64,000 nucleotides of DNA from Escherichia coli (GCF_001677475.2 NZ_CP015229.1); one strand, 5' to 3'; counted from the stretch's first letter, positions 4,593-21,247 are shown. Notes: generated by a model not told the origin, from the sequence alone. Numbers and translations: made by a program.

Positions 4593-5558
4593 TTACAGAA
4601 TGTGCCCTAAGGTCTGGCGTAAATGTGCACCGGAACCGAGAAGACCCGGATTGTCATGGACGATGAGATACACCGGAATATCATGGACATATTCTTTAAA
4701 GCGCCCTTTATCTTCAAATGCGGCACGGAAACCAGAGGCTTTGAAGAACTCAAGGAAGCGCGGCACGATACCGCCCGCAATAAACACGCCGCCAAATGTC
4801 CCTAGATTGAGCGCCAGATTGCCGCCAAAACGGCCCATAATGACGCAAAACAGCGACAACGCGCGGCGGCAATCGGTGCAGCTGTCAGCCAGCGCGCGTT
4901 CGGTAATATCTTTTGGCTTGAGATTTTCTGGCAGGCGGTTGTCGGCTTTAACAATTGCGCGATACAAATTCACCAGCCCAGGGCCAGAAAGCACGCGTTC
5001 CGCCGAAACATGGCCAATTTCCGCACGCAGTATTTCGAGGATAATGGCCTCTTCTTCACTATTCGGCGCAAAATCAACGTGACCGCCTTCGCCTGGCAAG
5101 CTTACCCAACGCTTATCGACATGGACCAGATGTGCAACCCCAAGCCCCGTTCCGGCACCGTAAACCGCAATAGGCTTACCTTCGACCGGTTCTGCGCCAC
5201 CAAACTGAATCAGATGCTCTTTTTTCAGCATCGGGATCGCCATCGATACAGCGGTAAAATCGTTAATAATTTCCAGATGGCTAAAACCGAGATTCTTTTT
5301 CATTTCGGCAATTGAGAACGCCCAGGTATGGTTGGTCATTGCCACCCAGTCACCGGTAATTGGGCAAGCGATGGCAATACAGCCGTCTTTCACCTCGACC
5401 TTATGTTCTTCAAGATAAACGCGAATGACCGCTTCGAGGCTGGGGTAATCAAGCCCTGAATAGGTCTTAGCCTGCGAGATTTCACCACTGGCAATATCAC
5501 ACAGAGCAAGACGTGCGTTGGTGCCGCCCACATCACCGACTAATGCATACTTTGTCAT
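4593..5558 (-). CDS. glk: Glucokinase
   Basis: 321 aa; N-terminus [21 protein letters not shown] (ROK/glucokinase ATP-binding motif). Confidence 0.97.
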
Positions 5559-5761
5559 TCTTCAACTGCTCCGCTAAAGTCAAAATAATTCTTTCTCACA
5601 CTGTAAATTCCTGGGGGCATAACAACAACGCCGGAAAGGCAGGCTCCCTGTAAATATCGATCTGGGTCACACAATTACTTTATCGTTTCAGCACCAATTG
5701 CAGCGATGCCTTTTTGCAAGCTGGGCAAACTAAGTATCTGACCCCGCATAAGGAATAGAAC

Positions 5762-7018
5762 ATGCTCCATCCGCGAGCCAGAACCATGTTGTTATTATCG
5801 CTCCCCGCCGTGGCAATTGGGATTGCGTCCAGTCTTATTCTGATTGTGGTGATGAAAATCGCCTCGGTATTACAGAATTTGCTCTGGCAACGACTGCCGG
5901 GAACTCTGGGGATAGCCCAGGATTCACCTTTCTGGATCATCGCCATATTAACGCTAACAGGTATTGCGGTGGGGTTGGTTATCCGTTTCAGCCAGGGGCA
6001 TGCTGGACCAGACCCCGCCTGTGAACCGCTGATCGGCGCACCGGTTCCGCCCTCTGCGCTACCAGGACTTATCGTAGCATTAATTCTCGGTCTTGCTGGC
6101 GGCGTCAGCCTGGGGCCGGAACATCCGATCATGACCGTCAATATCGCCCTTGCCGTCGCCATTGGCGCTCGTCTGTTACCGCGCGTCAACCGAATGGAGT
6201 GGACTATTTTAGCCTCTGCCGGAACCATCGGCGCGCTGTTTGGCACACCTGTTGCGGCGGCGTTGATATTTTCGCAAACCTTAAATGGCAGTAATGAAGT
6301 GCCGCTATGGGATCGACTCTTTGCGCCGTTAATGGCAGCGGCGGCTGGTGCGCTGACGACAAGTCTATTTTTCCACCCCCATTTTTCGCTGCCCATTGCG
6401 CATTACGGACAGATGCAGATGGCAGACATTATCAGCGGTGCGATTGTAGCGGCGATTGCCATCGCTGCGGGGATGGTCGCCGTATGGTGTCTGCCACGGT
6501 TGCACGCAATGATGCATCAGATTAAAAACCCTGTGCTTATGCTCGGGGTTGGCGGGTTTATTCTCGGTATTTTGGGGGTTATTGGTGGGCCGGTTTCACT
6601 GTTTAAAGGGCTGGATGAGATGCAGCAAATGGTGATGAATCAGGCTTTCAGCACCAGTGATTACTTTTTACTGGCGGTGATTAAGCTCGCCGCTCTGGTC
6701 ATTGCCGCCGCCAGCGGGTTTCGTGGCGGGCGAATCTTCCCGGCAGTGTTTGTTGGCGTGGCGTTAGGTTTGATGCTACATGAACACGTTCCCGCAGTCC
6801 CGGCGGCAATTACTGTCTCCTGCGCTATTCTCGGTATGGTACTGGTGGTAACGCGCGATGGCTGGTTAAGCCTGTTTATGGCGGCAGTCGTTGTACCTGA
6901 TACCAATCTGCTACCGCTACTTTGTATCGTTATGCTTCCGGCATGGCTATTGCTGGCTGGCAAACCGATGATGATTGTGAATCGCCCGAAGCAGCAACCA
7001 CCCCACGATAATCTTTAG
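5762..7018 (+). CDS. yfeO: ClC-family putative ion channel YfeO
   Basis: 418 aa polytopic membrane ORF; N-terminus [20 protein letters not shown]; AAGGA RBS. Confidence 0.9.
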
Positions 7019-7132
7019 CAAAAAATGCTCTCCATCATGATTTAAGAGTTATGGCGATGAAACGGGGCTTTACCTCCCCGTAATATTGCGTTAACAGGCC
7101 GCTGACGGCTTCGATCGTGAAGGAGAATATCA

Positions 7133-7459
7133 ATGTTCAGGTCACTGTTTCTGGCGGCCGCCCTGATGGCTTTTACCCCGCTTGCGGCAAACGCAGGTGA
7201 AATTACCCTACTGCCATCAATCAAATTACAAATTGGCGATCGCGATCATTACGGTAATTACTGGGACGGTGGTCATTGGCGCGACCGTGATTACTGGCAT
7301 CGTAATTACGAATGGCGTAAAAACCGCTGGTGGCGTCACGATAATGGCTACCACCGTGGCTGGGATAAGCGTAAAGCGTATGAGCGTGGCTATCGTGAAG
7401 GCTGGCGCGACCGTGATGATCATCGAGGGAAAGGCCGTGGACACGGACATCGTCATTAA
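7133..7459 (+). CDS. ypeC: Small secreted protein YpeC (DUF2502), W/R/H/D-rich
   Basis: 108 aa; signal peptide [21 protein letters not shown] followed by low-complexity [18 protein letters not shown]...GHGHRH; GGAG RBS. Confidence 0.85.
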
Positions 7460-7483
7460 ACACATCCACCAATGGAGCACGAT

Positions 7484-7575
<92 letters not shown>

Positions 7576-7600
7576 TGTGCCTGGTACGACGCCAGTTGAA

Positions 7601-8848
<1,248 letters not shown>

Positions 8849-8851
8849 CTA

Positions 8852-8873
8852 AAACATAGCCTTTGCTATGTTT
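8852..8873. promoter_or_regulatory. MntR operator (palindrome) in the mntH leader
   Basis: AAACATAGC-CTTT-GCTATGTTT perfect inverted repeat immediately upstream of the mntH RBS; matches the MntR box as I recall it. Confidence 0.75.
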
Positions 8874-8890
8874 CATGCTATGCCAAACGA

Positions 8891-8910
8891 GAATGATTAT
8901 CAAATTCATT
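8891..8910. promoter_or_regulatory. Fur box candidate upstream of mntH
   Basis: GAATGATTATCAAATTCATT resembles the GATAATGATAATCATTATC Fur consensus; mntH is known to be Fur/MntR co-regulated. Confidence 0.5.
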
Positions 8911-9174
8911 TGAATGGATTGTGGTGATTTCTCTGATAGACCAGGATTATGACTACGAAAAGATTGATGACTTGAATGTTATGGTTATGTTTAATGTTAG
9001 CACATTTACATAACTTTCAGCTTCCATACACAACATAGCAGAAATGTATGACAGCTCACTATTTTTGAAGCTTGTCACAGGACGTCATTATAGTGTGTGT
9101 CAGATCTCGTTTTCCTTAACCATGTTACATAGAATGTGCACGGAAATTTAACCTGCCTCATATTTGGAGCAAAT

Positions 9175-10377
9175 ATGGACCGCGTCCTTCATTTTGTACT
9201 GGCACTTGCCGTTGTTGCGATTCTCGCACTGCTGGTAAGCAGCGACCGCAAAAAAATTCGTATCCGTTATGTTATTCAACTGCTTGTTATCGAAGTGTTA
9301 CTGGCGTGGTTCTTCCTGAACTCCGACGTTGGTTTGGGCTTCGTGAAAGGCTTCTCCGAAATGTTCGAAAAACTGCTCGGATTTGCCAACGAAGGGACTA
9401 ACTTCGTCTTTGGTAGCATGAATGATCAAGGCCTGGCATTCTTCTTCCTGAAAGTGCTGTGCCCAATCGTCTTTATCTCTGCACTGATCGGTATTCTCCA
9501 GCACATTCGCGTGTTGCCGGTGATTATCCGCGCAATTGGTTTCCTGCTCTCCAAAGTCAACGGTATGGGCAAACTGGAATCCTTTAACGCCGTCAGCTCC
9601 CTGATTCTGGGTCAGTCTGAAAACTTTATTGCCTATAAAGATATCCTTGGCAAAATCTCCCGTAACCGTATGTACACCATGGCAGCAACGGCGATGTCCA
9701 CCGTTTCTATGTCCATCGTTGGTGCATACATGACCATGCTGGAGCCGAAATATGTCGTTGCAGCGCTGGTACTGAATATGTTCAGCACATTTATCGTGCT
9801 GTCGCTGATCAACCCGTACCGTGTTGATGCCAGTGAAGAAAACATTCAGATGTCCAACCTGCACGAAGGTCAGAGCTTCTTCGAAATGCTGGGTGAATAC
9901 ATTCTGGCAGGTTTCAAAGTTGCCATTATCGTTGCCGCAATGCTGATCGGCTTTATCGCCCTGATCGCGGCGCTGAACGCACTGTTTGCCACCGTGACTG
10001 GCTGGTTTGGCTACAGCATCTCCTTCCAGGGCATCCTGGGCTACATCTTCTATCCGATTGCATGGGTGATGGGTGTTCCGTCCAGCGAAGCACTGCAGGT
10101 GGGCAGTATCATGGCGACCAAACTGGTTTCCAACGAGTTCGTTGCGATGATGGATCTGCAGAAAATTGCTTCCACGCTCTCTCCGCGTGCTGAAGGCATC
10201 ATCTCTGTGTTCCTGGTTTCCTTCGCTAACTTCTCTTCAATCGGGATTATCGCAGGTGCAGTTAAAGGCCTGAATGAAGAGCAAGGTAACGTGGTTTCTC
10301 GCTTCGGTCTGAAGCTGGTTTACGGCTCTACCCTGGTGAGTGTGCTGTCTGCGTCAATCGCAGCACTGGTGCTGTAA
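9175..10377 (+). CDS. nupC: Nucleoside:H+ symporter NupC
   Basis: ORF track starts at 9136; chosen start is the ATG giving [20 protein letters not shown] (400 aa), CNT-family transporter. Confidence 0.95.
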
Positions 10378-10388
10378 GCACCATACAT

Positions 10389-10420
10389 AAAAAAGCCGGG
10401 GATAATTCCCCGGCTTTTTT
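10389..10420. terminator. Bidirectional intrinsic terminator between nupC and pdeA
   Basis: AAAAAGCCGGGGATAATTCCCCGGCTTTTTT: GC-rich hairpin flanked by A-run and T-run. Confidence 0.8.
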
Positions 10421-10427
10421 ACGCCTG

Positions 10428-12617
10428 TTAATCAGCTAATGGCTGCGGGCGACCAATCAGATACCCTTGCAGATATTGCACCCCGAGCTTATGCAATAGC
10501 GCCTGTTGCTGTTGCGTCTCGACAAACTCCGCGACCACACTCAATGACTTCGCTTTCGCCAGATCGGTAATTGATCTCACAATCATCGCATCCAGCGTGT
10601 TCGTGACAATATCTTTCACAAAGACGCCATCAATTTTGATGATATCAGCCTGCAAACGCTTTAACCGTTCGTAGTTGGCATATCCGGTGCCAAAGTCATC
10701 AATCGCAATCCGGAAACCAAACTTATGCAGCTGCTCGATGTTGTACATGCTGCTTTCTGCGTTAGAAAACGCCTGCTCCTCGGTGATCTCAAGAATGACC
10801 GCCTGCGGGGAGATGTGATAACGCTTAAACAGACGAATAATCCGCCCGGCAATATTCTTTTGCAGCAGCGTGAGCGGCATTAAATTGACTGAAAAGCGCG
10901 GTCCTTTTTTGTCGCAAGGGTGTGTTGCCAGCCACTTCAACAAGGATTCCAGCACTTGCAAATCAAAACGCGCGCTAAGGTTAAACTGAGCAATAAGGGG
11001 CAGAAACTTATCCGGGGTCATAATGCCGCCGTCATACTTCAGTCGCGCGAGGATCTCATCATAACCTTCACCCTCTTTGTTGCGAATTGGCTGGGCGTAG
11101 AGCAGCAAATCACCCTGATCTAACGCCGTGCGAATGGTATTCAGCAATAGCACCTGTTTAGTGGTCTGCCCGGAAACCATCTCCTCTCTGCTATCCAGCG
11201 CCAGCACATGATGATGTGCACAGGATTGCTCCGCCAGCCAGCTTAACTGCCCCAACAAGGGTTGCAGGGTTTCCTGATTTCCATCAAAACGCCCCCAGGC
11301 AGCACCATAGCCCATATCCAGCCCGGTATTGTTCCAGTGAATTTGCCGACTATTCAGGATGTTAACCATATGCTGGAGTCGTCCTTCCGTTTCCGGTCCG
11401 CTCAGCACTAACAGCAGTTCACTACCCGGCAATTGATACAACTTTTCGTTTTCCTGCATCAACGGCAGCAGCGTACGGTAAATTGAGCGGATACAGTGAA
11501 CGCGCATCATTAACCCGTAATGACGACTCATAAACTCAAGATTATCAATGCGCAGGCAGCAAAAACTCTTGCCCGCCTCTTGCTCCGGCGCTTGTTCTAA
11601 CGCACGAAAGTTGGGTAGGAGCGTTAACGGATCGGTCAGCGCCTGCAAATGCCAGCGGCGATTAAGCCATTCACTGCGATGATAAATGCGCACCATATAG
11701 AGCAGGCAAACGCTAAAGGAAATCAGCACCGCAAGAATAAATGCCAGCGAATATTCGGTTTCCACCCCTTGCAAAAAGTTCTGGTTGTAATTCAGCAGGC
11801 AAAGCGTTGAAACAGCCCAGGTGAGATTTAAAAACGGATAGCGAAGCTTACCGACCCCGAGGGTAAAGATGATGAAGAAAACGGGTACCAGGTAACCGGC
11901 AATAAAGTCGTTTTCATAAGGTGTGCACAACAGAAGTAGCAGCACGCTTAACGCTGCCAGCCAGCTTAAGGTAAATGCGCGTTTCTCTTTGCCCAACGAC
12001 GGAGCGATATCCCTGCGCCACAATATCTGCGCAAAGTGGGGACTTACAATCATGCGAGTGAGATAGTAGAAAAGCATGTTGTAAATCAGCACAGCGGTGA
12101 AAAGGCTTAGCAAATCAACGACCGTGAAAATGGCATCCGCATCGCCGAAAAAGGTGGATATCTTTAGCGGGAAATCAAAGAAGCTCCCCACAAGATACAT
12201 GCTGCATTTGATGCCGATCGGCGTCACCAAACCAAGCCAGAACAGACGTTGCCAGACATATCGGCTGGTCAATCCATAACGCCAACGCGTCCCCAGCTGC
12301 CAGCGTAATATTGCGCAGGCACACAACACGACAAACGTCTGGCTGCCGAGCATGACCGCAGTCTGTAAAAAAGAGAGATGAAAGTTCCACAGATTGGTGC
12401 AAAACATCCCGCATAAAACGGGAACGACACCGCGCCAGCCAAAGATAAACAAGATTGATAGCATTACGCACAGTGGCATCCACGCCAGAAAGATATAACT
12501 GGAATGGATAATGGCAAGTGGCGAAATAAAACGGGATAGCTGAATAAGTACCACGGTGAGCGTAAACGCTAGTGTGAATATCTTGATATTTTTTATCAGG
12601 TTATGCTCCACAAACAT
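10428..12617 (-). CDS. pdeA: c-di-GMP phosphodiesterase PdeA (YfeA), MASE1-GGDEF-EAL
   Basis: ORF track 749 aa; start chosen at internal Met (MFVEHNLIKNIK) giving 729 aa; N-terminal polytopic domain, C-terminal EAL motifs (EITE...DDFGTGY). Confidence 0.85.
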   Translation of the reverse strand: MFVEHNLIKNIKIFTLAFTLTVVLIQLSRFISPLAIIHSSYIFLAWMPLCVMLSILFIFGWRGVVPVLCGMFCTNLWNFHLSFLQTAVMLGSQTFVVLCACAILRWQLGTRWRYGLTSRYVWQRLFWLGLVTPIGIKCSMYLVGSFFDFPLKISTFFGDADAIFTVVDLLSLFTAVLIYNMLFYYLTRMIVSPHFAQILWRRDIAPSLGKEKRAFTLSWLAALSVLLLLLCTPYENDFIAGYLVPVFFIIFTLGVGKLRYPFLNLTWAVSTLCLLNYNQNFLQGVETEYSLAFILAVLISFSVCLLYMVRIYHRSEWLNRRWHLQALTDPLTLLPNFRALEQAPEQEAGKSFCCLRIDNLEFMSRHYGLMMRVHCIRSIYRTLLPLMQENEKLYQLPGSELLLVLSGPETEGRLQHMVNILNSRQIHWNNTGLDMGYGAAWGRFDGNQETLQPLLGQLSWLAEQSCAHHHVLALDSREEMVSGQTTKQVLLLNTIRTALDQGDLLLYAQPIRNKEGEGYDEILARLKYDGGIMTPDKFLPLIAQFNLSARFDLQVLESLLKWLATHPCDKKGPRFSVNLMPLTLLQKNIAGRIIRLFKRYHISPQAVILEITEEQAFSNAESSMYNIEQLHKFGFRIAIDDFGTGYANYERLKRLQADIIKIDGVFVKDIVTNTLDAMIVRSITDLAKAKSLSVVAEFVETQQQQALLHKLGVQYLQGYLIGRPQPLAD

Positions 12618-12824: not shown

Positions 12825-12900
<76 letters not shown>

Positions 12901-13480: not shown

Positions 13481-13873
13481 ATGAAAAGATTACGCAATAA
13501 AATGACCACCGAAGAACTGGCTGAATGTCTCGGTGTGGCTAAACAAACTGTTAACCGTTGGATCAGAGAAAAAGGCTGGAAAACGGAAAAATTTCCCGGC
13601 GTGAAAGGCGGTCGTGCCAGACTTATTCTGGTCGATACGCAAGTTTGCGAGTTTATTCAGAACACGCCTGCGTTCCATAACACACCAATGTTGATGGAAG
13701 CTGAAGAGAGAATTGCTGAATACGCTCCTGGAGCACGCGCCCCGGCGTATCGACAAATCATCAACGCGATAGATAATATGACAGACATTGAGCAGGAAAA
13801 AGTCGCGCAATTTTTGTCACGTGAAGGAATTCGCAATTTCCTCGCCCGTCTCGATATTGACGAATCAGCATAA
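13481..13873 (+). CDS. yfeD: Putative HTH DNA-binding protein YfeD
   Basis: 130 aa; MKRLRNKMTTEELAECLGVAKQTVNRWIREKGW, clear paralogue of YfeC. Confidence 0.85.
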   Translation: MKRLRNKMTTEELAECLGVAKQTVNRWIREKGWKTEKFPGVKGGRARLILVDTQVCEFIQNTPAFHNTPMLMEAEERIAEYAPGARAPAYRQIINAIDNMTDIEQEKVAQFLSREGIRNFLARLDIDESA

Positions 13874-15598: not shown

Positions 15599-15674
15599 GG
15601 GTGATTAGCTCAGCTGGGAGAGCACCTCCCTTACAAGGAGGGGGTCGGCGGTTCGATCCCGTCATCACCCACCA
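15599..15674 (+). tRNA. valU: tRNA-Val (UAC)
   Basis: GGGTGATTAGCTCAGCTGGGAGAGCACCTCCCTTACAAGGAGGGGGTCGGCGGTTCGATCCCGTCATCACCCACCA, 76 nt. Confidence 0.95.
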
Positions 15675-15718
15675 ACTACTTTATGTAGTCTCCGCCGTGT
15701 AGCAAGAAATTGAGAAGT

Positions 15719-15794
15719 GGGTGATTAGCTCAGCTGGGAGAGCACCTCCCTTACAAGGAGGGGGTCGGCGGTTCGATCCCGTCATCACCCACCA
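15719..15794 (+). tRNA. valX: tRNA-Val (UAC), second identical copy
   Basis: Identical 76-nt sequence to the first Val tRNA after a 44-nt spacer. Confidence 0.95.
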
Positions 15795-15798
15795 CTTC

Positions 15799-15874
15799 GG
15801 GTCGTTAGCTCAGTTGGTAGAGCAGTTGACTTTTAATCAATTGGTCGCAGGTTCGAATCCTGCACGACCCACCA
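15799..15874 (+). tRNA. lysV: tRNA-Lys (UUU)
   Basis: GGGTCGTTAGCTCAGTTGGTAGAGCAGTTGACTTTTAATCAATTGGTCGCAGGTTCGAATCCTGCACGACCCACCA, 4 nt after the second Val tRNA. Confidence 0.95.
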
Positions 15875-15878
15875 ATGT

Positions 15879-15907
15879 AAAAAAGCGCCCTAAAGGCGCT
15901 TTTTTGC
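15879..15907 (+). terminator. Intrinsic terminator of the tRNA operon
   Basis: AAAAAAGCGCCCTAAAGGCGCTTTTTTGC hairpin plus T-run. Confidence 0.85.
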
Positions 15908-15982
15908 TATCTGCGATTTGCGAAATTGCCTGATGCGCTTCACTTAGCAGACTACTATTTCCGGCAATTCCTGTCTCCTCAC

Positions 15983-16867
15983 CTACTGTGTCAATGCAGC
16001 CAACAGCTTAACCATCGCGGGCGTCACCTGCTGTGTTTCATAAACAATATATAAATCTGCAGGGATGCGCTGTTTGAGCGGACGGAAAATGACACCTGGC
16101 CAGTTCATTTGTGCGTAGCTGTCCGCTATCAATGTGATACCAATGCCCATACTGACCATGGCGAGTACCGTTTGCGGTTCATTAACTTCGCGAATAACAA
16201 CCGGTGAAAATCCCACCTGCTGGCAAACTCGCTGCAAAAAATCCCAGTCAGTGTACACGGGCGGCATTGTAACAAAATACTCGTCACGTAGCGCTTCCAG
16301 CGGGACGGTGGAAAATGATGAGAAATGATGCTCTTCAGGCATCGCCACCAGAAACGCCGATTCATGCAACCGTAAGCTGGTAAAACCTGCAGGTGGTTCT
16401 GTTGCCATTCGCCAGATACCGGCATCGAGTTCACGTCGTTCCAGCAGGGTCATTTGCATCGCGGGCATCTTTTCGCGAAAAAGAACGTCAACGTTAGGAT
16501 TTTCCCTGAGGAATCGCCGCATAACCGGGCGCATCCGTCCCCACATTGCCGTTCCCACTACGCCGAGTTCAATCCGCCCTGCTTCTCCCCGACCTATTTG
16601 TTCAACCCGAGCCAATACATTATTAGCATTCACCAGCAATCGACGCGATTCTTCCATCAAGATTTTGCCCGCGTGTGTCAGTACGACGCTGCGCGAATGG
16701 CGAATAAAAAGCTGCGTGCCGAGTTGATTTTCCAGCTCTTTAATATGAATACTGAGCGGAGGCTGAGACATATTTAAACGCGCTGCTGCGCGACCAAAAT
16801 GCAACTCTTCCGCTACGGCAAGAAAATAACGGAGCAACTTAAGATCTGTTCTGTATACGCGTTCCAT
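15983..16867 (-). CDS. xapR: LysR-family activator of xanthosine catabolism XapR
   Basis: ORF track 299 aa; start chosen at MERVYRTDLKLLRYFLAVAEELHFGRAAARLNMSQPPLS (294 aa), LysR HTH. Confidence 0.9.
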   Translation of the reverse strand: MERVYRTDLKLLRYFLAVAEELHFGRAAARLNMSQPPLSIHIKELENQLGTQLFIRHSRSVVLTHAGKILMEESRRLLVNANNVLARVEQIGRGEAGRIELGVVGTAMWGRMRPVMRRFLRENPNVDVLFREKMPAMQMTLLERRELDAGIWRMATEPPAGFTSLRLHESAFLVAMPEEHHFSSFSTVPLEALRDEYFVTMPPVYTDWDFLQRVCQQVGFSPVVIREVNEPQTVLAMVSMGIGITLIADSYAQMNWPGVIFRPLKQRIPADLYIVYETQQVTPAMVKLLAALTQ

Positions 16868-17087
16868 AATTAAGTGCTCCATATAATAAATACATCGTAT
16901 TAAATTATCATGGCATAAAGTATTTCACCACCAGATATCCGACATACATAAACACAATGGATAATATACCTGGTAATACATTTGGTACAGGAATAGGCAA
17001 GCGCACGATTGTAAACAAAGCACCAATGCCAAAACCAACGCCGGAAGAAAATAAAATATCTTTCACTAATTAACCTTTATCATAAAA

Positions 17088-17110
17088 GCAGCTCTGAAGA
17101 GCAGAGCTGC
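17088..17110 (-). terminator. Terminator hairpin downstream of xapB
   Basis: GCAGCTCTG-AAGA-GCAGAGCTGC inverted repeat followed by a T-run on the minus strand. Confidence 0.6.
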
Positions 17111-17118
17111 GAATCCTT

Positions 17119-18375
17119 TTAATGAGCCACCGCTCGATGCTTTATCTTTTCAGGGTCATGATTATATTTAAACCCAAAGAAAAATATCACTGCGAGAAAA
17201 AGAGCATATCCTGCAAACACCAGCCAGATAGTTTGCCAGTCTTTTACGCCATCCACCGAAAAGTAATCTACTGCCATACCGCTCAGAATCGAGCCAATCC
17301 ATGCGCCGACACCATTTACCATGGTCATAAAGAGCCCCTGCGCGCTGGCACGAATGCTGGAATCAACTTCCTGTTCGACAAATACCGAACCAGAAATATT
17401 GAAGAAATCGAATGCACAGCCATAAACAATCATCGACAGCAGCAGCAAAATAAATCCGGTTGTTGACGGATCGCCATAGGCGAAGAAGCCAAAGCGCAGC
17501 GTCCAGGCCACCATACTCATCAGCATGACGGTTTTAATTCCAAATCGCTTTAAAAAGAATGGGATAGTCAGTATAAAGCCCACTTCTGCCATCTGTGAAA
17601 CCGACAGTAAAATGGAGGGATATTTCACCACAAAACTGTCAGCAAACTCCGGGTTACGGGCGAAATCATGTAGGAACGGATTACCAAAAACGTTGGTAAT
17701 TTGCAGTACCGCACCCAGCATCATGGCAAAGAGGAAAAAGATGGCCATGCGTGGATTTTTAAACAGCACGAAGGCATCCAGACCCAGCTTGCTGGCAAGC
17801 GATGTGGTCGTTTTTTTCTCCGCAACCGGAATCTTCGGCAAAGTCAGCGCATAAGCCGACAGCAGCAATGACGCACCGGACGCGATATACAGCTGCAGAC
17901 TACTCAATTCCAGATGCAGCAGGCTTACTGCCCACATCGCGACAATGAACCCCACCGTACCAAAAACGCGAATGGGCGGGAAAGCGGTCACCGGGTCAAG
18001 CCCTGCCTGGGCAAGACAGGAATAAGAGACGCTGTTCGATAACGCAATAGTCGGCATAAACGCCATCGCATTGACTAACATCACCCAAAACATCATATCC
18101 GGATCAGTTACGGATGCCGCATAAAAAAGTACGCCCGCACACACCAGGTGACATAGCATGTATGCACGTTCTGCGCGCAGCCATTTGTCTGCGATGATCC
18201 CCATTATACCAGGCATAATAATCGCGGCGATCCCTTTGGAACTGTAAACCATGCCAACATTAGCGCCGGTGAAATGAAGGGTATTAATCATGTAAGAACC
18301 GAGGGTAACCAGCCAGCTCCCCCAGATAAAATATTGCAAAAAGGACATTACCTTTAAGCGCAAAGCGATGCTCAT
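17119..18375 (-). CDS. xapB: Xanthosine permease XapB (MFS nucleoside:H+ symporter family)
   Basis: 418 aa, 12-TM-like ORF; MSIALRLKVMSFLQYFIWGSWLVTLGSYM. Confidence 0.95.
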   Translation of the reverse strand: MSIALRLKVMSFLQYFIWGSWLVTLGSYMINTLHFTGANVGMVYSSKGIAAIIMPGIMGIIADKWLRAERAYMLCHLVCAGVLFYAASVTDPDMMFWVMLVNAMAFMPTIALSNSVSYSCLAQAGLDPVTAFPPIRVFGTVGFIVAMWAVSLLHLELSSLQLYIASGASLLLSAYALTLPKIPVAEKKTTTSLASKLGLDAFVLFKNPRMAIFFLFAMMLGAVLQITNVFGNPFLHDFARNPEFADSFVVKYPSILLSVSQMAEVGFILTIPFFLKRFGIKTVMLMSMVAWTLRFGFFAYGDPSTTGFILLLLSMIVYGCAFDFFNISGSVFVEQEVDSSIRASAQGLFMTMVNGVGAWIGSILSGMAVDYFSVDGVKDWQTIWLVFAGYALFLAVIFFFGFKYNHDPEKIKHRAVAH

Positions 18376-18435
18376 AATCGTTTCCTTGTCGCATCATATG
18401 GCCTCACTCAGTGAGGCCGTTTATTGTTGTTTTAC

Positions 18436-19269
18436 TCAGGCAATTTTGCGCAGAAAGCCGCAAATAAGATTAATAAAGTTTTGCTTTGAGAGTTCCGCTG
18501 CTGCCAGCGTTTGGGCATGAGAAAGCTTCACGTCACTCAGACCTTCCGCCATGTTGGTAATCGCAGAGACCGCAACGACTTTAAGGTCGCAATGGCGAGC
18601 TGAAATAACCTCAGGCACCACAGACATACCAACAACATCCCCACCAATAATTTGCATCATGCGAATTTCCGCCGCAGTCTCGAAATTCGGCCCCGGATAC
18701 GAGACGAACACGCCCTCCGTCAGAGAGAAACCCTCTTCTTTTGCCACTTTTTGTAACAGTGCGCGGTATTCCGCATCGTAGGCATTTGCCAGTGAGAAGA
18801 AACGCTCGCCAAAACGATCATCGTTAAGACCCACCATCGGCGTACCTGGCATGGCGTTGATATGATCTTTCAATGCGACCAGGCTGCCTGCCCCCACTTC
18901 CGGACGCAGCGAGCCTGCCGCATTGGTGCAGAACAGTAGCTCGCAGCCCAGCAGCTTAAAGGTACGAATTGCGTCAGTCATAATGGTCATTCCACGACCT
19001 TCGTAGAAATGTCCGCGACCTTTCATACATACCACCGGTACGCCCTGGAGATGGCCCAGCACTAACTCCCCCGCATGACCATGTACCGTACTTACCGGGA
19101 AGCCCGGCAGCTTTTCGTAGGAAATTGCGACAGCGTTCTCAATCTGATCGGCCAGCGCGCCCAGCCCGGAACCTAAAATAAAGGCCACTCGTGGCGTGAA
19201 ATCAGGTTTATAAGTCTTGATAATATCTATGCAAAACAGCGGGTTATGAGAAAATTGAACCTGAGGCAT
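18436..19269 (-). CDS. xapA: Xanthosine (purine nucleoside) phosphorylase II
   Basis: 277 aa; PNP-family motifs (GSGLG, hexameric/trimeric PNP fold signature). Confidence 0.95.
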   Translation of the reverse strand: MPQVQFSHNPLFCIDIIKTYKPDFTPRVAFILGSGLGALADQIENAVAISYEKLPGFPVSTVHGHAGELVLGHLQGVPVVCMKGRGHFYEGRGMTIMTDAIRTFKLLGCELLFCTNAAGSLRPEVGAGSLVALKDHINAMPGTPMVGLNDDRFGERFFSLANAYDAEYRALLQKVAKEEGFSLTEGVFVSYPGPNFETAAEIRMMQIIGGDVVGMSVVPEVISARHCDLKVVAVSAITNMAEGLSDVKLSHAQTLAAAELSKQNFINLICGFLRKIA

Positions 19270-19517
19270 ATATATCCTTTTTCTGTAGGGTGGAATCTAA
19301 CGCCTTTTTATAGCGAGGTTGTCCCGGCTCTTACCAATACACTTTTCTCACGCATTCAATAGCGATTCGATATCGATGGATTTATATCTTTTCTCTATTA
19401 ATCCACGGTAAAAACTGTATTGGCGATATTAATTCCTTTGCATTAACAATATGTCGTTTTTAGCAAACCACTTTATTAAGCAATCTACTAATAACGATCG
19501 GCATAGGGAATTATGCT

Positions 19518-20282
19518 ATGAAAAAACATCTTTTAACTCTGACACTTTCCTCTATATTAGCGATACCTGTTATATCTCATGCAGAATTTAAAGGCGGTTT
19601 TGCAGATATCGGCGTGCATTATCTGGACTGGACCAGCCGGACTACCGAAAAATCGTCGACCAAATCACACAAAGATGATTTTGGTTATCTTGAAATTGAA
19701 GGTGGCGCTAACTTTAGTTGGGGAGAAATGTACGGGTTCTTCGACTGGGAAAACTTCTATAACGGTCGCCATAATAAACCAGGTAGCGAGCAGCGTTATA
19801 CCTTTAAAAATACCAACCGTATTTACCTGGGTGACACCGGATTTAATCTTTACCTGCACACGTATGGCACCTACGGGTCTGCGAATCGTGTGAATTTCCA
19901 CGACGATATGTTCCTGTACGGTGTCGGCTACAATTTCACCGGCAGCGGTTGGTGGTTCAAACCGTTCTTTGCTAAGCGTTATACAGATCAAACCTATTAC
20001 ACTGGCGACAACGGCTATGTCGCCGGCTGGGTTGCAGGTTACAACTTTATGCTGGGCAGCGAGAAATTCACTCTTACCAACTGGAACGAGTACGAGTTTG
20101 ACCGTGACGCTACCTATGCAGCGGGTAATGGCGGTAAAGAAGGGCTGAATGGCGCAGTTGCACTGTGGTGGAATGCAACATCACACATCACTACGGGGAT
20201 TCAGTATCGATATGCGGATGACAAACTGGGCGAAGATTTTTACCAGGATGCGATAATCTACTCCATCAAATTTAACTTCTGA
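19518..20282 (+). CDS. yfeN: Putative outer-membrane beta-barrel protein YfeN (Tsx-like)
   Basis: 254 aa; signal peptide MKKHLLTLTLSSILAIPVISHA; aromatic-rich strands and C-terminal ...IKFNF typical of OMP barrels. Confidence 0.85.
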   Translation: MKKHLLTLTLSSILAIPVISHAEFKGGFADIGVHYLDWTSRTTEKSSTKSHKDDFGYLEIEGGANFSWGEMYGFFDWENFYNGRHNKPGSEQRYTFKNTNRIYLGDTGFNLYLHTYGTYGSANRVNFHDDMFLYGVGYNFTGSGWWFKPFFAKRYTDQTYYTGDNGYVAGWVAGYNFMLGSEKFTLTNWNEYEFDRDATYAAGNGGKEGLNGAVALWWNATSHITTGIQYRYADDKLGEDFYQDAIIYSIKFNF

Positions 20283-20320
20283 TTGATTCCTGCCGGGGCT
20301 CCCGGCAGTATGAATTCACT

Positions 20321-21247
20321 CTATATCTGATACAACGGATCCCCTTCCCGCCCAGCCATTAGCGCATGGCCCTGGTCTCGTACCACGTCCCATAACGCTT
20401 GTGCGGCGGTGGAAAGTGAACGGTTCTTCCTGCGCACCAGCATCAACTGGCGTTCCACCACCGGCGTAATGCGCTTTACCACCAGCGGGCTACCTTCAGG
20501 TAACGGCAGCGCCAGTGCGGGAAGAATACTGATGCCGATGCCTGCGGCTACCATCGGGAACAGCGTCGCCGGATGTCCAATCTCCTGCACAATATTCGCC
20601 TGAATACCATTGCGCGCCAGCGCTGCGTCAATCAGCGGTCGGCTGCCTGACGCGTAATCCTGCAACACCAATTTCGCTCCCTGTAATGCCTGCCAGGGTA
20701 CATAATCTTCCACGGCCAAAGCGCTATCGCGATGGCAAAGCAGAAAGAAAGGCTCGGAAAGAATCGCTTCACATTGCAGATCGCCCACTGGGCCTGGATC
20801 GATGACGATGCCAAAGTCGACATCTCCCTGGCGAATACTTTCCATCACCCACTGCTGCGGACGATCGTGCAGGACAAACTGAATATCTGGATAGCGGCGA
20901 TGGCTTTCAGCAATGCATTGCGGAATAAGATGCGCGGAAATGGTCTGGCTGGCAGCGACGCGAACTTTTCCGCTCAGTTGTTGCCCCATACGCCCGGTAT
21001 CGCGCAACGTACTGTTAAGTTCATCCAGTAGTCGCTCAAGACGCAAAGCCAACTGCTGCCCTGCATCTGTAAGCACCACTTCACGCGTGGTTCTGTCCAG
21101 CAGGCGAACACCAGTATGATTTTCCAGCTCCTTCACACTGTGACTCACTGCCGACTGGCTCAGGCCGATACGCTCTCCTGCACGACTAAAACTTTTCTCC
21201 TGCGCTACTGTGACGAAAACCTTTAATTGTTTTAAAGAATAATTCAT
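20321..21247 (-). CDS. yfeR: LysR-family transcriptional regulator YfeR
   Basis: 308 aa; N-terminal LysR HTH ([38 protein letters not shown]). Confidence 0.9.

What the first reader, a model, noticed from the sequence alone, without database searches (positions are those of the whole stretch)
15983..20282. AT-rich xapR-xapB-xapA-yfeN block immediately downstream of tRNA-Lys
By eye the xanthosine catabolism genes and the adjacent Tsx-like outer-membrane gene yfeN are noticeably more AT-rich than flanking core genes such as gltX and ligA, and they begin right after a tRNA-Lys gene. This is a typical signature of an old horizontally acquired islet, though no integrase or direct repeats are visible. 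The pairing of an outer-membrane channel with a nucleoside permease and phosphorylase suggests a complete xanthosine uptake route.
Basis: inference. Interest (0 to 1): 0.3.

Follow-up and report, generated by a model that had tools for sequence, protein, structure and literature searches.

The report
Swappable xanthosine-use gene cassette with porin
This stretch is the already known xanthosine-utilisation gene cluster (xapR-xapX-xapB-xapA) plus the uncharacterised outer-membrane channel gene yfeN; it is an optional, horizontally exchanged cassette that a quarter of E. coli strains lack, and sequence evidence suggests yfeN belongs to the same xanthosine-controlled pathway.

Summary
Genes and coordinates are right, the block starts 46 nt after tRNA-Lys, and it is the lowest-GC 4.3 kb stretch of the window (47.0% vs 52.6±2.9%). 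The signal is modest: GC3 is about 1 SD low, CAI is normal, and much of it comes from 35%-GC spacers and yfeN.

The islet reading is supported by better evidence than composition. The segment 15921-20319 is one of two alternative alleles in E. coli: 4098 of 5426 complete genomes carry it, and 1317 carry a 0.4 kb flxA-like gene at the same breakpoints. Only 17 of 52 Enterobacteriaceae species loci hold xap. Escherichia has xenologous xap versions (xapA dS 3.7 against 0.3 in flanks). Pseudocitrobacter vendiensis carries an E. coli-like copy, and Budviciaceae carry yfeN|xapA-xapB-xapX-deoC-xapR at an unrelated locus. There is no integrase and no att repeat, so exchange by homologous recombination in conserved flanks is inferred. 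Repeated xapR/xapA transfer was published in 2008.

New here: a second XapR-type promoter module faces yfeN (E=9e-5). YfeN models as a Tsx-like 12-strand barrel, and its homologues adjoin nucleoside genes in five of ten contexts. This makes a XapR-controlled outer-membrane entry step plausible but untested.

Verdict: ordinary and largely known, with low to moderate interest.

The parts
15599..15874 (+). tRNA-Val, tRNA-Val and tRNA-Lys(UUU), the valU...lysV operon. This is the conserved left anchor of the variable segment.
   Evidence: ARAGORN and Rfam. The same cluster is found in all Enterobacteriaceae loci checked.
15884..15905 (+). GC hairpin plus T-run (AGCGCC-CTAAA-GGCGCT-TTTTT), the terminator of the tRNA operon. 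Sequence shared with block-less genomes runs up to 15920.
   Evidence: Read directly from the sequence and compared with L001. The pattern scan did not list it.
15921..20319 (.). Variable segment (4399 bp), the xap+yfeN allele of a two-allele locus. In 1317 E. coli genomes it is replaced by about 0.4 kb carrying a flxA-like gene.
   Evidence: Breakpoints come from alignment of the window with L001. Counts are 4098 versus 1317 of 5426 genomes.
15983..16867 (-). xapR, the LysR-type activator of xapAB. The open frame extends to 16882.
   Evidence: Pfam HTH_1 plus LysR_substrate. NCBIfam NF007439 scores 528 bits against a cutoff of 290. It is 99% identical to K-12 XapR.
16908..17066 (-). xapX, a 52-aa DUF1427/TIGR03510 small hydrophobic protein of unknown role.
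   Evidence: The protein is identical to the annotated K-12 gene. TIGR03510 scores 64 bits. It is conserved in the Salmonella and Budviciaceae cassettes.
17088..17110 (.). Perfect 9-bp-stem hairpin with T-runs on both strands, lying between xapB and xapX. It is terminator-like.
   Evidence: Pattern scan only.
17119..18375 (-). xapB, the xanthosine/H+ symporter (NHS family of the MFS).
   Evidence: Pfam Nuc_H_symport scores 629 bits and TIGR00889 scores 752 bits.
18436..19269 (-). xapA, xanthosine phosphorylase.
   Evidence: TIGR01699 equivalog scores 536 bits against a cutoff of 371.
19331..19380 (-). xapA promoter module: ATCGATA..CTATTGAAT-N12-TGTATTGGT, followed 21 nt later by TATAAA. It is conserved in 19 xapA promoters from 10 or more genera.
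   Evidence: Alignment and nhmmer E=1.5e-14. The literature reports two XapR sites, one overlapping -35 (PMC7205307).
19384..19423 (+). Second XapR-type module in the opposite orientation, facing yfeN: CTATTAATC-N12-TGTATTGG, followed 21 nt later by AACAAT. It is a candidate XapR-dependent yfeN promoter.
   Evidence: nhmmer with the xapA-promoter profile gives E=8.9e-5 (18.7 bits), and nothing else in the 64 kb scores below E=3. It scores 16-24 bits in K-12, B2, ETEC, a cryptic Escherichia clade and P. vendiensis, and 13.8 bits in Salmonella. It is absent from xap loci without yfeN and from ampG-cyoA yfeN orthologues.
19518..20282 (+). yfeN, a Tsx/OmpK-family 12-stranded outer-membrane beta-barrel with a signal peptide and a C-terminal ...KFNF.
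   Evidence: Pfam Channel_Tsx scores 151 bits. The AlphaFold2 model has pLDDT 90. The best solved-structure match is Tsx 1TLW, with TM 0.66-0.68 and 14% identity.
20290..20308 (.). Hairpin CTGCCGG..CCGGCAG between the convergent genes yfeN and yfeR.
   Evidence: Read directly from the sequence.
20321..21247 (-). yfeR, a LysR-family gene. It is the conserved right anchor, and sequence shared with block-less genomes resumes at 20320.
   Evidence: dS falls back to 0.07 here.

Best explanation
The region is a 4.4-kb accessory catabolic cassette. It consists of the known xanthosine system xapR-xapX-xapB-xapA and the divergently transcribed outer-membrane channel gene yfeN. It sits in a gene-content hotspot between the valU-lysV tRNA operon and yfeR. 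In E. coli it is one of two alternative alleles; the other is a small flxA-like gene. Across Enterobacteriaceae three modules (xap, yfeN, flxA-like) occur in six combinations.

Shown: the cassette has been exchanged between lineages. Inferred: exchange and replacement happen by homologous recombination in the highly conserved flanks (tRNA genes on the left, yfeR/yfeH on the right), not through an integrase.

The known part of the mechanism, from the literature, is that xanthosine-bound XapR activates xapAB, XapB imports xanthosine and XapA phosphorolyses it. Inferred here: XapR also activates yfeN through a mirrored copy of its promoter module, and YfeN, a Tsx-fold barrel, provides the outer-membrane entry step for nucleosides. 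The mild AT-richness comes mainly from yfeN, the promoter spacers and a GC3 deficit of about 0.06. This fits transfer among Enterobacterales with 46-50% GC, but it does not prove it.
For: Polymorphism. 4098 of 5426 E. coli genomes have the block, and 1317 have the flxA-like allele at identical breakpoints. Flanks are equally similar whichever allele is present.

Distribution. Of 52 species loci, 24 have flxA-like only, 10 are empty, 5 have xap only, 6 have xap+flxA, 6 have xap+yfeN and 1 has yfeN+flxA. The block is present in S. enterica subsp. enterica but absent in subsp. arizonae and diarizonae and in Paratyphi A (PMC6138749).

Transfer. xapA dS between the window and an Escherichia cryptic lineage is 3.7, against 0.31-0.34 in the flanks. 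In P. vendiensis xapB, xapA, yfeN and yfeR are 89-94% identical to the window, against 78-87% for the flanks. The XapA+XapB tree is incongruent with the flank tree. Budviciaceae carry yfeN(71%)|xapA(86%)-xapB(78%)-xapX-deoC-xapR(70%) between modF and modE. Repeated xapR-xapA co-transfer is already published (PMC2395238).

No integrase and no att repeats were found.

The yfeN link. A XapR-type module faces yfeN. The fold is Tsx-like. yfeN co-occurs with xap at this locus (Fisher p=0.003, not corrected for phylogeny). YfeN homologues sit next to nucleoside permease or phosphorylase genes in five of ten distinct contexts. dN/dS is below 0.1 for all block genes.
Against: Composition and codon adaptation are within the normal gene range, and xap GC3 tracks host GC3 (r=0.74). 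The cassette is therefore either long resident or exchanged among similar genomes. The same chromosomal position in many genera is also what vertical descent with repeated loss would give, and a truncated yfeR in S. arizonae points to deletion. Recombination in the flanks is inferred from the breakpoints, not observed. Eleven of 17 xap-bearing species lack yfeN. yfeN orthologues in Yersinia, Xenorhabdus, Proteus and Plesiomonas have no nucleoside neighbours. The yfeN-facing module is strong only in the Escherichia/Salmonella-type cassette, so shared descent may inflate its apparent conservation. It could also be a distal XapR site serving xapA. YfeN is only 14% identical to Tsx, and neither single-sequence nor profile searches reach Tsx. 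No paper in the searchable library links yfeN to xanthosine.
Confidence: 0.7

Rival explanations
1. The block is ancestral core DNA of Enterobacteriaceae that was inherited vertically. Its patchy distribution comes only from repeated deletions, and no horizontal acquisition is involved.
For: xap occupies the same lysV-yfeR position in Escherichia, Salmonella, Citrobacter, Klebsiella, Atlantibacter, Lelliottia, Enterobacter and Silvania. GC3 tracks the host and CAI is normal. S. arizonae shows a deletion reaching into yfeR. A decayed haplotype exists in E. coli.
Against: xapA dS is saturated (3.7) between two Escherichia lineages whose flanks differ by 0.3. P. vendiensis has an E. coli-like cassette in diverged flanks. 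Klebsiella and Silvania are misplaced in the Xap tree. The cassette sits at an unrelated locus in Budviciaceae with XapA 86% identical. Published analysis infers four acquisitions.
Confidence: 0.15
2. The block is a classical tRNA-targeting genomic island that was integrated at tRNA-Lys by a site-specific integrase, which has since been lost.
For: The variable segment begins 46 nt after tRNA-Lys. Its distribution is sporadic. It is slightly AT-rich.
Against: No integrase or recombinase gene, or remnant of one, is present among the ORFs. No copy of the tRNA 3' end occurs anywhere else in the window within 3 mismatches, and no flanking direct repeats were found. The junction lies beyond the tRNA terminator, not inside the tRNA. 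The alternative allele fills the same breakpoints, so this is a replacement rather than an insertion.
Confidence: 0.03
3. yfeN is only a physical passenger. It is a general or otherwise dedicated outer-membrane channel or surface protein unrelated to xanthosine, and the second promoter-like module is a distal XapR site for xapA or a chance similarity.
For: Most xap-bearing species lack yfeN. Orthologues in four genera lie between ampG and cyoA with no nucleoside genes. E. coli already has Tsx (established knowledge). A yfeN S121P mutation had no phenotype in one study (PMC7797564). HusR, another LysR regulator, binds this spacer (PMC12844172).
Against: The module has the same internal spacing and the same 21-nt distance to a -10-like hexamer as the xapA promoter. 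It occurs only where yfeN is present. yfeN-type genes adjoin nucleoside transport or catabolism genes in five independent contexts, including an apparent channel-plus-NupG-like two-gene operon and a deoR|tsx-like-nupC-deoCABD operon.
Confidence: 0.3
4. The AT-richness says nothing about origin. It reflects membrane-protein amino-acid composition, weak expression and AT-rich promoter spacers.
For: xapB and yfeN have the lowest GC1 values in the window (0.50 and 0.465). The spacers are 35% GC. CAI is normal. Other native stretches are nearly as AT-rich (47.9% at nupC-pdeA).
Against: GC3 is also lower than in the flanks, by 0.06 here and by 0.05 on average over 20 hosts. yfeN GC3 stays at 0.46-0.52 in hosts whose flanks are 0.58-0.66. 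Other membrane-protein genes in the window have GC3 of 0.58-0.75.
Confidence: 0.35

Closest known systems
xapABR xanthosine catabolism system of E. coli K-12 (Seeger, Poulsen and Dandanell 1995; as cited in PMC7205307 and PMC2395238)
   Same: Gene order and orientation are the same. The proteins are 98-99% identical to K-12. Equivalog-level family matches are met. The xapA promoter is conserved with its two XapR sites.
   Different: There is no functional difference. The window lacks the RtT-like repeat that K-12 carries between lysV and xapR. It is about 2% diverged from K-12 at the nucleotide level.
Tsx, the nucleoside-specific outer-membrane channel of E. coli (PDB 1TLW/1TLY)
   Same: YfeN matches Pfam Channel_Tsx. 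The predicted 12-stranded barrel has Tsx as its best solved-structure match, with TM 0.66-0.68.
   Different: Identity is only 14%, and neither single-sequence nor profile searches reach Tsx. Annotators group YfeN with OmpK rather than Tsx. The substrate is unknown. It is linked to xap rather than being a stand-alone gene.
tRNA-associated genomic islands
   Same: The segment lies next to a tRNA gene, has a sporadic distribution and is slightly atypical in composition.
   Different: It has no integrase, no att direct repeats and no mobility genes. It is small (4.4 kb). An alternative cassette occupies identical breakpoints.
Repeated co-transfer of neighbour regulators with their target operons (Price, Dehal and Arkin 2008, Genome Biol 9:R4, Fig. 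3)
   Same: That paper uses xapR-xapA as its worked example and infers four acquisitions in gamma-proteobacteria. The present data extend the same pattern within Enterobacterales.
   Different: The passages retrieved from that paper do not mention yfeN, the flxA-like alternative allele, or the within-E. coli dimorphism.

Membership tests
xapABR xanthosine utilisation system | XapA belongs to the xanthosine phosphorylase equivalog family. | tested here: met
   TIGR01699 scores 536 bits against a cutoff of 371.
xapABR xanthosine utilisation system | An NHS-family nucleoside/H+ symporter lies directly downstream of xapA. | tested here: met
   Pfam Nuc_H_symport scores 629 bits and TIGR00889 scores 752 bits. 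The genes lie 60 nt apart on the same strand.
xapABR xanthosine utilisation system | A LysR-type activator XapR lies downstream, and conserved XapR sites lie in the xapA promoter. | tested here: met
   NF007439 scores 528 bits. The promoter module is conserved in 19 loci and matches the window at E=1.5e-14.
xapABR xanthosine utilisation system | Xanthosine-inducible growth on, and phosphorolysis of, xanthosine. | not testable with these tools
   This needs an experiment. All reading frames are intact and dN/dS is below 0.1.
Tsx/OmpK family outer-membrane channel (for YfeN) | Match to the family profile. | tested here: met
   PF03502 scores 151 bits against a cutoff of 27.2, covering profile positions 2-244 of 244.
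Tsx/OmpK family outer-membrane channel (for YfeN) | A 12-stranded beta-barrel fold like Tsx, with a signal peptide and a C-terminal aromatic residue. | tested here: met
   The model has pLDDT 90 and 12 strands. The top PDB match is 1TLW_B, with E=7e-8 and TM 0.66/0.68. The N-terminus reads MKKHLLTLTLSSILAIPVISHA|EF and the C-terminus reads KFNF.
Tsx/OmpK family outer-membrane channel (for YfeN) | Conserved nucleoside-binding residues lining the channel, and nucleoside transport. | not tested
   The Tsx structure paper was not available. Sequence alignment to Tsx is unreliable at 14% identity. Transport needs an experiment.
XapR regulon (for yfeN) | A XapR-type binding module correctly placed upstream of the gene. 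| tested here: met
   Window 19384-19423(+) matches the xapA-promoter profile at E=8.9e-5. It lies at -134 to -95 from the yfeN ATG and has the same N12 and N21 spacings as the xapA promoter.
XapR regulon (for yfeN) | XapR- and xanthosine-dependent transcription. | not testable with these tools
   No expression data could be found in the library.
Integrase-type tRNA-linked genomic island | An integrase or recombinase gene at the tRNA-proximal end. | tested here: not met
   All ORFs are assigned and none is a recombinase.
Integrase-type tRNA-linked genomic island | Direct repeats derived from the tRNA 3' end flanking the island. | tested here: not met
   The 23-nt lysV 3' end occurs once in the window within 3 mismatches. 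No flanking repeats were found.
Integrase-type tRNA-linked genomic island | Sporadic distribution among close relatives. | tested here: met
   75.5% of E. coli genomes and 17 of 52 species loci carry it.

The most novel reading that the evidence does not exclude
yfeN encodes the missing outer-membrane step of the xanthosine pathway. It would be a XapR-activated, xanthosine-inducible Tsx-fold nucleoside channel. yfeN|xapA-xapB-xapX-xapR would then be a self-contained, three-compartment uptake-and-catabolism cassette that travels as a unit among Enterobacterales. In E. coli it would be kept as an old presence/absence polymorphism against a flxA-like allele.
Probability: 0.4. Interest if true: 0.4.

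Novelty: already known. Interest (0 to 1): 0.3.

Why it matters
The genes, their function (apart from yfeN and xapX) and the horizontal mobility of xapR-xapA are already in the literature, so the finding as written adds little. Three points are worth keeping.

1. The locus is a clean natural experiment. Two alternative alleles at identical breakpoints segregate at about 75% and 24% in E. coli, including within phylogroups. This can confound pangenome association studies; xapB and xapR already appear as hits in one such study.

2. There is a concrete, cheap-to-test hypothesis for an orphan outer-membrane protein: yfeN as a member of the XapR regulon and a nucleoside channel.

3. The case shows that adjacency to a tRNA can mark a recombination anchor rather than an integrase target.

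Tried and rejected
- Looked for att-like repeats of the lysV 3' end and for any flanking direct or inverted repeats. None were found.
- Rfam scan of the window found only the four tRNAs. The RtT-like element annotated in K-12 is absent here.
- Sequence searches of YfeN, and of a 44-sequence YfeN profile, against PDB did not reach Tsx. The only hit was a marginal NanC match at E=0.13. The fold comparison was needed instead.
- Plasmid carriage was considered as a vehicle. The five hits are megabase-size or non-mobilisable records that look like mislabelled chromosome pieces, so this was rejected.
- The primary papers could not be read: Seeger 1995, Jorgensen and Dandanell 1999, and the Tsx structure paper are not held. 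A remembered Sort-Seq paper does not cover xap.
- Diversifying selection on surface loops was considered for the 10% nucleotide divergence of yfeN within E. coli. It was rejected because dN/dS is 0.04, so the divergence is synonymous and points to old alleles.
- The simple promoter scan found no consensus sigma-70 promoter in the xapA-yfeN spacer. This is expected for activator-dependent promoters and is not informative.

Full report
**What is there.** The window is Escherichia DNA. Its best match to 5426 complete E. coli genomes is 98.6% in the block and 99.3% in the adjacent core. The finding's coordinates hold these genes:
- xapR at 15983-16867(-), with the open frame running to 16882
- xapB at 17119-18375(-)
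- xapA at 18436-19269(-)
- yfeN at 19518-20282(+)

All reading frames are intact. Family matches are at equivalog level, and the proteins are 98-100% identical to K-12. To the left lie gltX(-), then tRNA-Val, tRNA-Val and tRNA-Lys(UUU) ending at 15874, and a GC hairpin plus T-run at 15884-15905. To the right lie yfeR(-), yfeH(+) and ligA(-).

**Composition.** The block has 47.0% GC against 52.6% for the window. It is the lowest of all 4.3-kb windows (sd 2.9; the next lowest elsewhere is 47.9%). Per gene, GC is 45-51% against 53.6±3.4 and GC3 is 0.50-0.55 against 0.587±0.06 (p about 0.01). CAI is ordinary at 0.21-0.39 against 0.34±0.09 (p=0.6; Sharp-Li weights entered from memory). The two membrane proteins have the lowest GC1 values in the window, and the spacers are 35% GC. 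Across 20 hosts, xap GC3 follows the host flank GC3 (r=0.74) with a mean deficit of 0.05. yfeN GC3 stays near 0.46-0.52 almost everywhere.

**A two-allele locus in E. coli.** The block is present in 4098 of 5426 complete genomes. In 1317 others, including HS, O157:H7, O121 and O103 strains, the interval holds about 0.4 kb with a 113-aa FlxA-like gene (Pfam PF14282) whose end overlaps yfeR. Aligning the two forms puts the breakpoints at window 15920|15921, just past the tRNA-operon terminator, and at 20319|20320, one base before the yfeR stop codon. Neither allele carries remnants of the other, so this is a replacement rather than a simple insertion. Flanking genes are equally similar to the window whichever allele a strain has. 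A published pangenome table shows both states within phylogroups A and B1 (PMC9602453). About ten genomes carry a third, decayed mosaic haplotype that I could not explain.

**Distribution beyond E. coli.** I collected 80 loci by their GltX match, and 52 of them span the whole interval. Of these, 24 have the flxA-like gene only, 10 are empty, 5 have xap only, 6 have xap+flxA-like, 6 have xap+yfeN and 1 has yfeN+flxA-like. S. enterica subsp. enterica has the full E. coli-like arrangement. Subspecies arizonae and diarizonae do not, and Paratyphi A is reported to lack xapAB (PMC6138749).

**Evidence for horizontal exchange.**
- Between the window and an Escherichia cryptic lineage (L005; E. albertii is the same type), xapA dS is 3.7 and nucleotide identity is 72-78%. 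This is as distant as Klebsiella. Yet gltX and yfeR differ by dS 0.31-0.34.
- Within E. coli, the alleles of the window/K-12 type and of the B2 strain NC101 differ by dS 0.16-0.23 in xap and 0.55 in yfeN, against 0.07-0.13 in the flanks. dN/dS is below 0.1 throughout, so these are old alleles under purifying selection.
- Pseudocitrobacter vendiensis carries xapB, xapA, yfeN and yfeR at 89-94% identity to the window, in flanks that are 78-87% identical.
- The XapA+XapB tree nests P. vendiensis inside the E. coli type, nests the Klebsiella oxytoca group inside Citrobacter, and places Silvania with Citrobacter. All of this contradicts the flank tree (neighbour-joining, no bootstrap).
- Budviciaceae (Limnobaculum parvum and strain BWR-B9; loci at 46% GC) carry yfeN(71%) divergent from xapA(86%)-xapB(78%)-xapX-deoC-xapR(70%), plus deoB in one of them. 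The cassette lies between modF and modE, a different locus in a different family.

There is no integrase, no tRNA-derived repeat and no true plasmid copy. I therefore infer exchange by homologous recombination in the conserved flanks. Deletions also contribute: yfeR is truncated in S. arizonae. [quoted passage not shown]

**Is yfeN part of the pathway?**
- *Family.* YfeN matches Channel_Tsx at 151 bits. Its AlphaFold2 model (pLDDT 90) is a 12-stranded barrel whose best solved match is Tsx with thymidine (1TLW, TM 0.66-0.68, 14% identity). Sequence-only searches do not reach Tsx.
- *Regulation.* All 19 xapA promoters examined share ATCGATA...CTATTGA-N12-TGTATTGGT, followed 21 nt later by TATAA. 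This fits the two reported XapR sites, one of which overlaps -35 (PMC7205307). A profile built from these promoters finds two matches in the 64-kb window: the xapA promoter at 19331-19380(-) with E=1.5e-14, and a non-overlapping second match at 19384-19423(+) with E=8.9e-5. The only other match below E=3 (19356-19379(+), E=0.01) lies inside the first and is its palindromic XapR site read from the other strand. The second copy faces yfeN at -134 to -95 from its ATG. It keeps the N12 spacing (CTATTAATC-N12-TGTATTGG) and has a conserved AACAAT 21 nt downstream. It scores 16-24 bits in K-12, B2, ETEC, a cryptic clade and P. vendiensis, and 13.8 bits in Salmonella. Only the core 8-mer is seen in C. 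sedlakii and L005. It is absent from xap loci that lack yfeN and from yfeN orthologues elsewhere.
- *Neighbourhood.* yfeN co-occurs with xap at this locus in 6 of 7 cases against 11 of 45 (Fisher p=0.003, uncorrected for phylogeny). YfeN-type genes adjoin nucleoside genes in five of ten distinct contexts:
  - xap in Enterobacteriaceae
  - xap plus deoC/deoB in Budviciaceae
  - a channel followed by a NupG-like permease pair
  - deoD-deoB-deoC in Endozoicomonas
  - deoR|channel-nupC-deoC-deoA-deoB-deoD in Vreelandella
- *Against.* Eleven of 17 xap-bearing species lack yfeN. Orthologues in Yersinia, Xenorhabdus, Proteus, Plesiomonas and one further genome (species not given in the output) sit by ampG with no nucleoside genes, and one sits alone between modE and modF.
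- *Literature.* The library contains no functional data on yfeN. It is described only as a putative Tsx-family protein. A S121P change was neutral, no BASEL phage needed it, and a HusR gSELEX peak lies in the xapA-yfeN spacer.

**Verdict.** The islet interpretation is right in substance, but for reasons other than composition, and it is largely already known. The tRNA is best seen as a recombination anchor. The proposed complete uptake route is a reasonable and now sharper hypothesis, with yfeN as a candidate XapR-regulon outer-membrane nucleoside channel, but it has not been shown. Interest is low to moderate.

Noticed in passing
window 15599-15874 and 12825-12900: The window has two tRNA-Val, one tRNA-Lys and a single tRNA-Ala(GGC). 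Most E. coli and other Enterobacteriaceae loci examined have three Val plus Lys and two Ala. E. coli ECE218 and Pseudocitrobacter vendiensis share the two-Val form and are 100% identical over the tRNA region.
   Followed up: partly
window 15875-15982; L003 2850-2975: K-12, ECE218 and ETEC1748 carry a roughly 155-bp insertion between lysV and xapR, within which a 126-nt RtT sRNA is annotated. It duplicates the last ~18 nt of lysV plus its terminator. The window, NC101 and the flxA-like allele lack it. The repeat does not flank the block.
   Followed up: partly
window 16908-17066 (-): A small xapX gene (52 aa, DUF1427/TIGR03510, hydrophobic) lies between xapB and xapR. It is conserved in the Salmonella and Budviciaceae cassettes, and its function is unknown. 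A perfect bidirectional hairpin at 17088-17110 separates it from xapB.
   Followed up: partly
window 13481-13873 (yfeD): yfeD differs by dS of about 0.5 (89% nucleotide identity) between the window/K-12 type and the B2/ETEC1748/cryptic-clade type. Its neighbours yfeC and gltX differ by dS of about 0.1. This is a second spot of deeply diverged alleles, 2 kb left of the block.
   Followed up: no
L002 6200-7560 (E. coli MLI104K2): This is a rare third haplotype. It has xap-type junctions on both sides, but inside it holds only xapB fragments (83-92% identity), a flxA-like fragment (76%) and a 64-nt xapA piece embedded in that fragment. About ten genomes carry it, and its origin is unexplained.
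   Followed up: partly
L005 3311-6030 (Escherichia cryptic lineage labelled E. coli SCPM-O-B-8794): This divergent cassette type has two extra genes between yfeN and xapA. One is a second NupG/XapB-like permease (61% identity to XapB). The other is a 309-aa protein with a nucleoside 2-deoxyribosyltransferase domain. E. albertii (L006) carries the same xap type, but its contig holds too little sequence upstream of xapA to show these genes or yfeN.
   Followed up: partly
L065 8360-9270 (Buttiauxella massiliensis): This locus has yfeN plus the flxA-like gene but no xap genes. A weak (10.6-bit) match to the XapR-box profile lies beside yfeN and may be a relic of a lost xap cassette.
   Followed up: no
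L086 1991-3632 (E. coli ETEC1748): An IS200/IS605 element (insQ/tnpB plus a tnpA pseudogene) is inserted between yfeD and gltX in this strain only. This is further evidence that the neighbourhood tolerates insertions.
   Followed up: no
L096 and L097 (Budviciaceae), 5372-11243: The xap cassette there includes deoC, and deoB in one genome. This extends it from uptake and phosphorolysis to pentose-phosphate catabolism. A related genome has the yfeN-like gene alone at the same modE|modF position (L098).
   Followed up: partly
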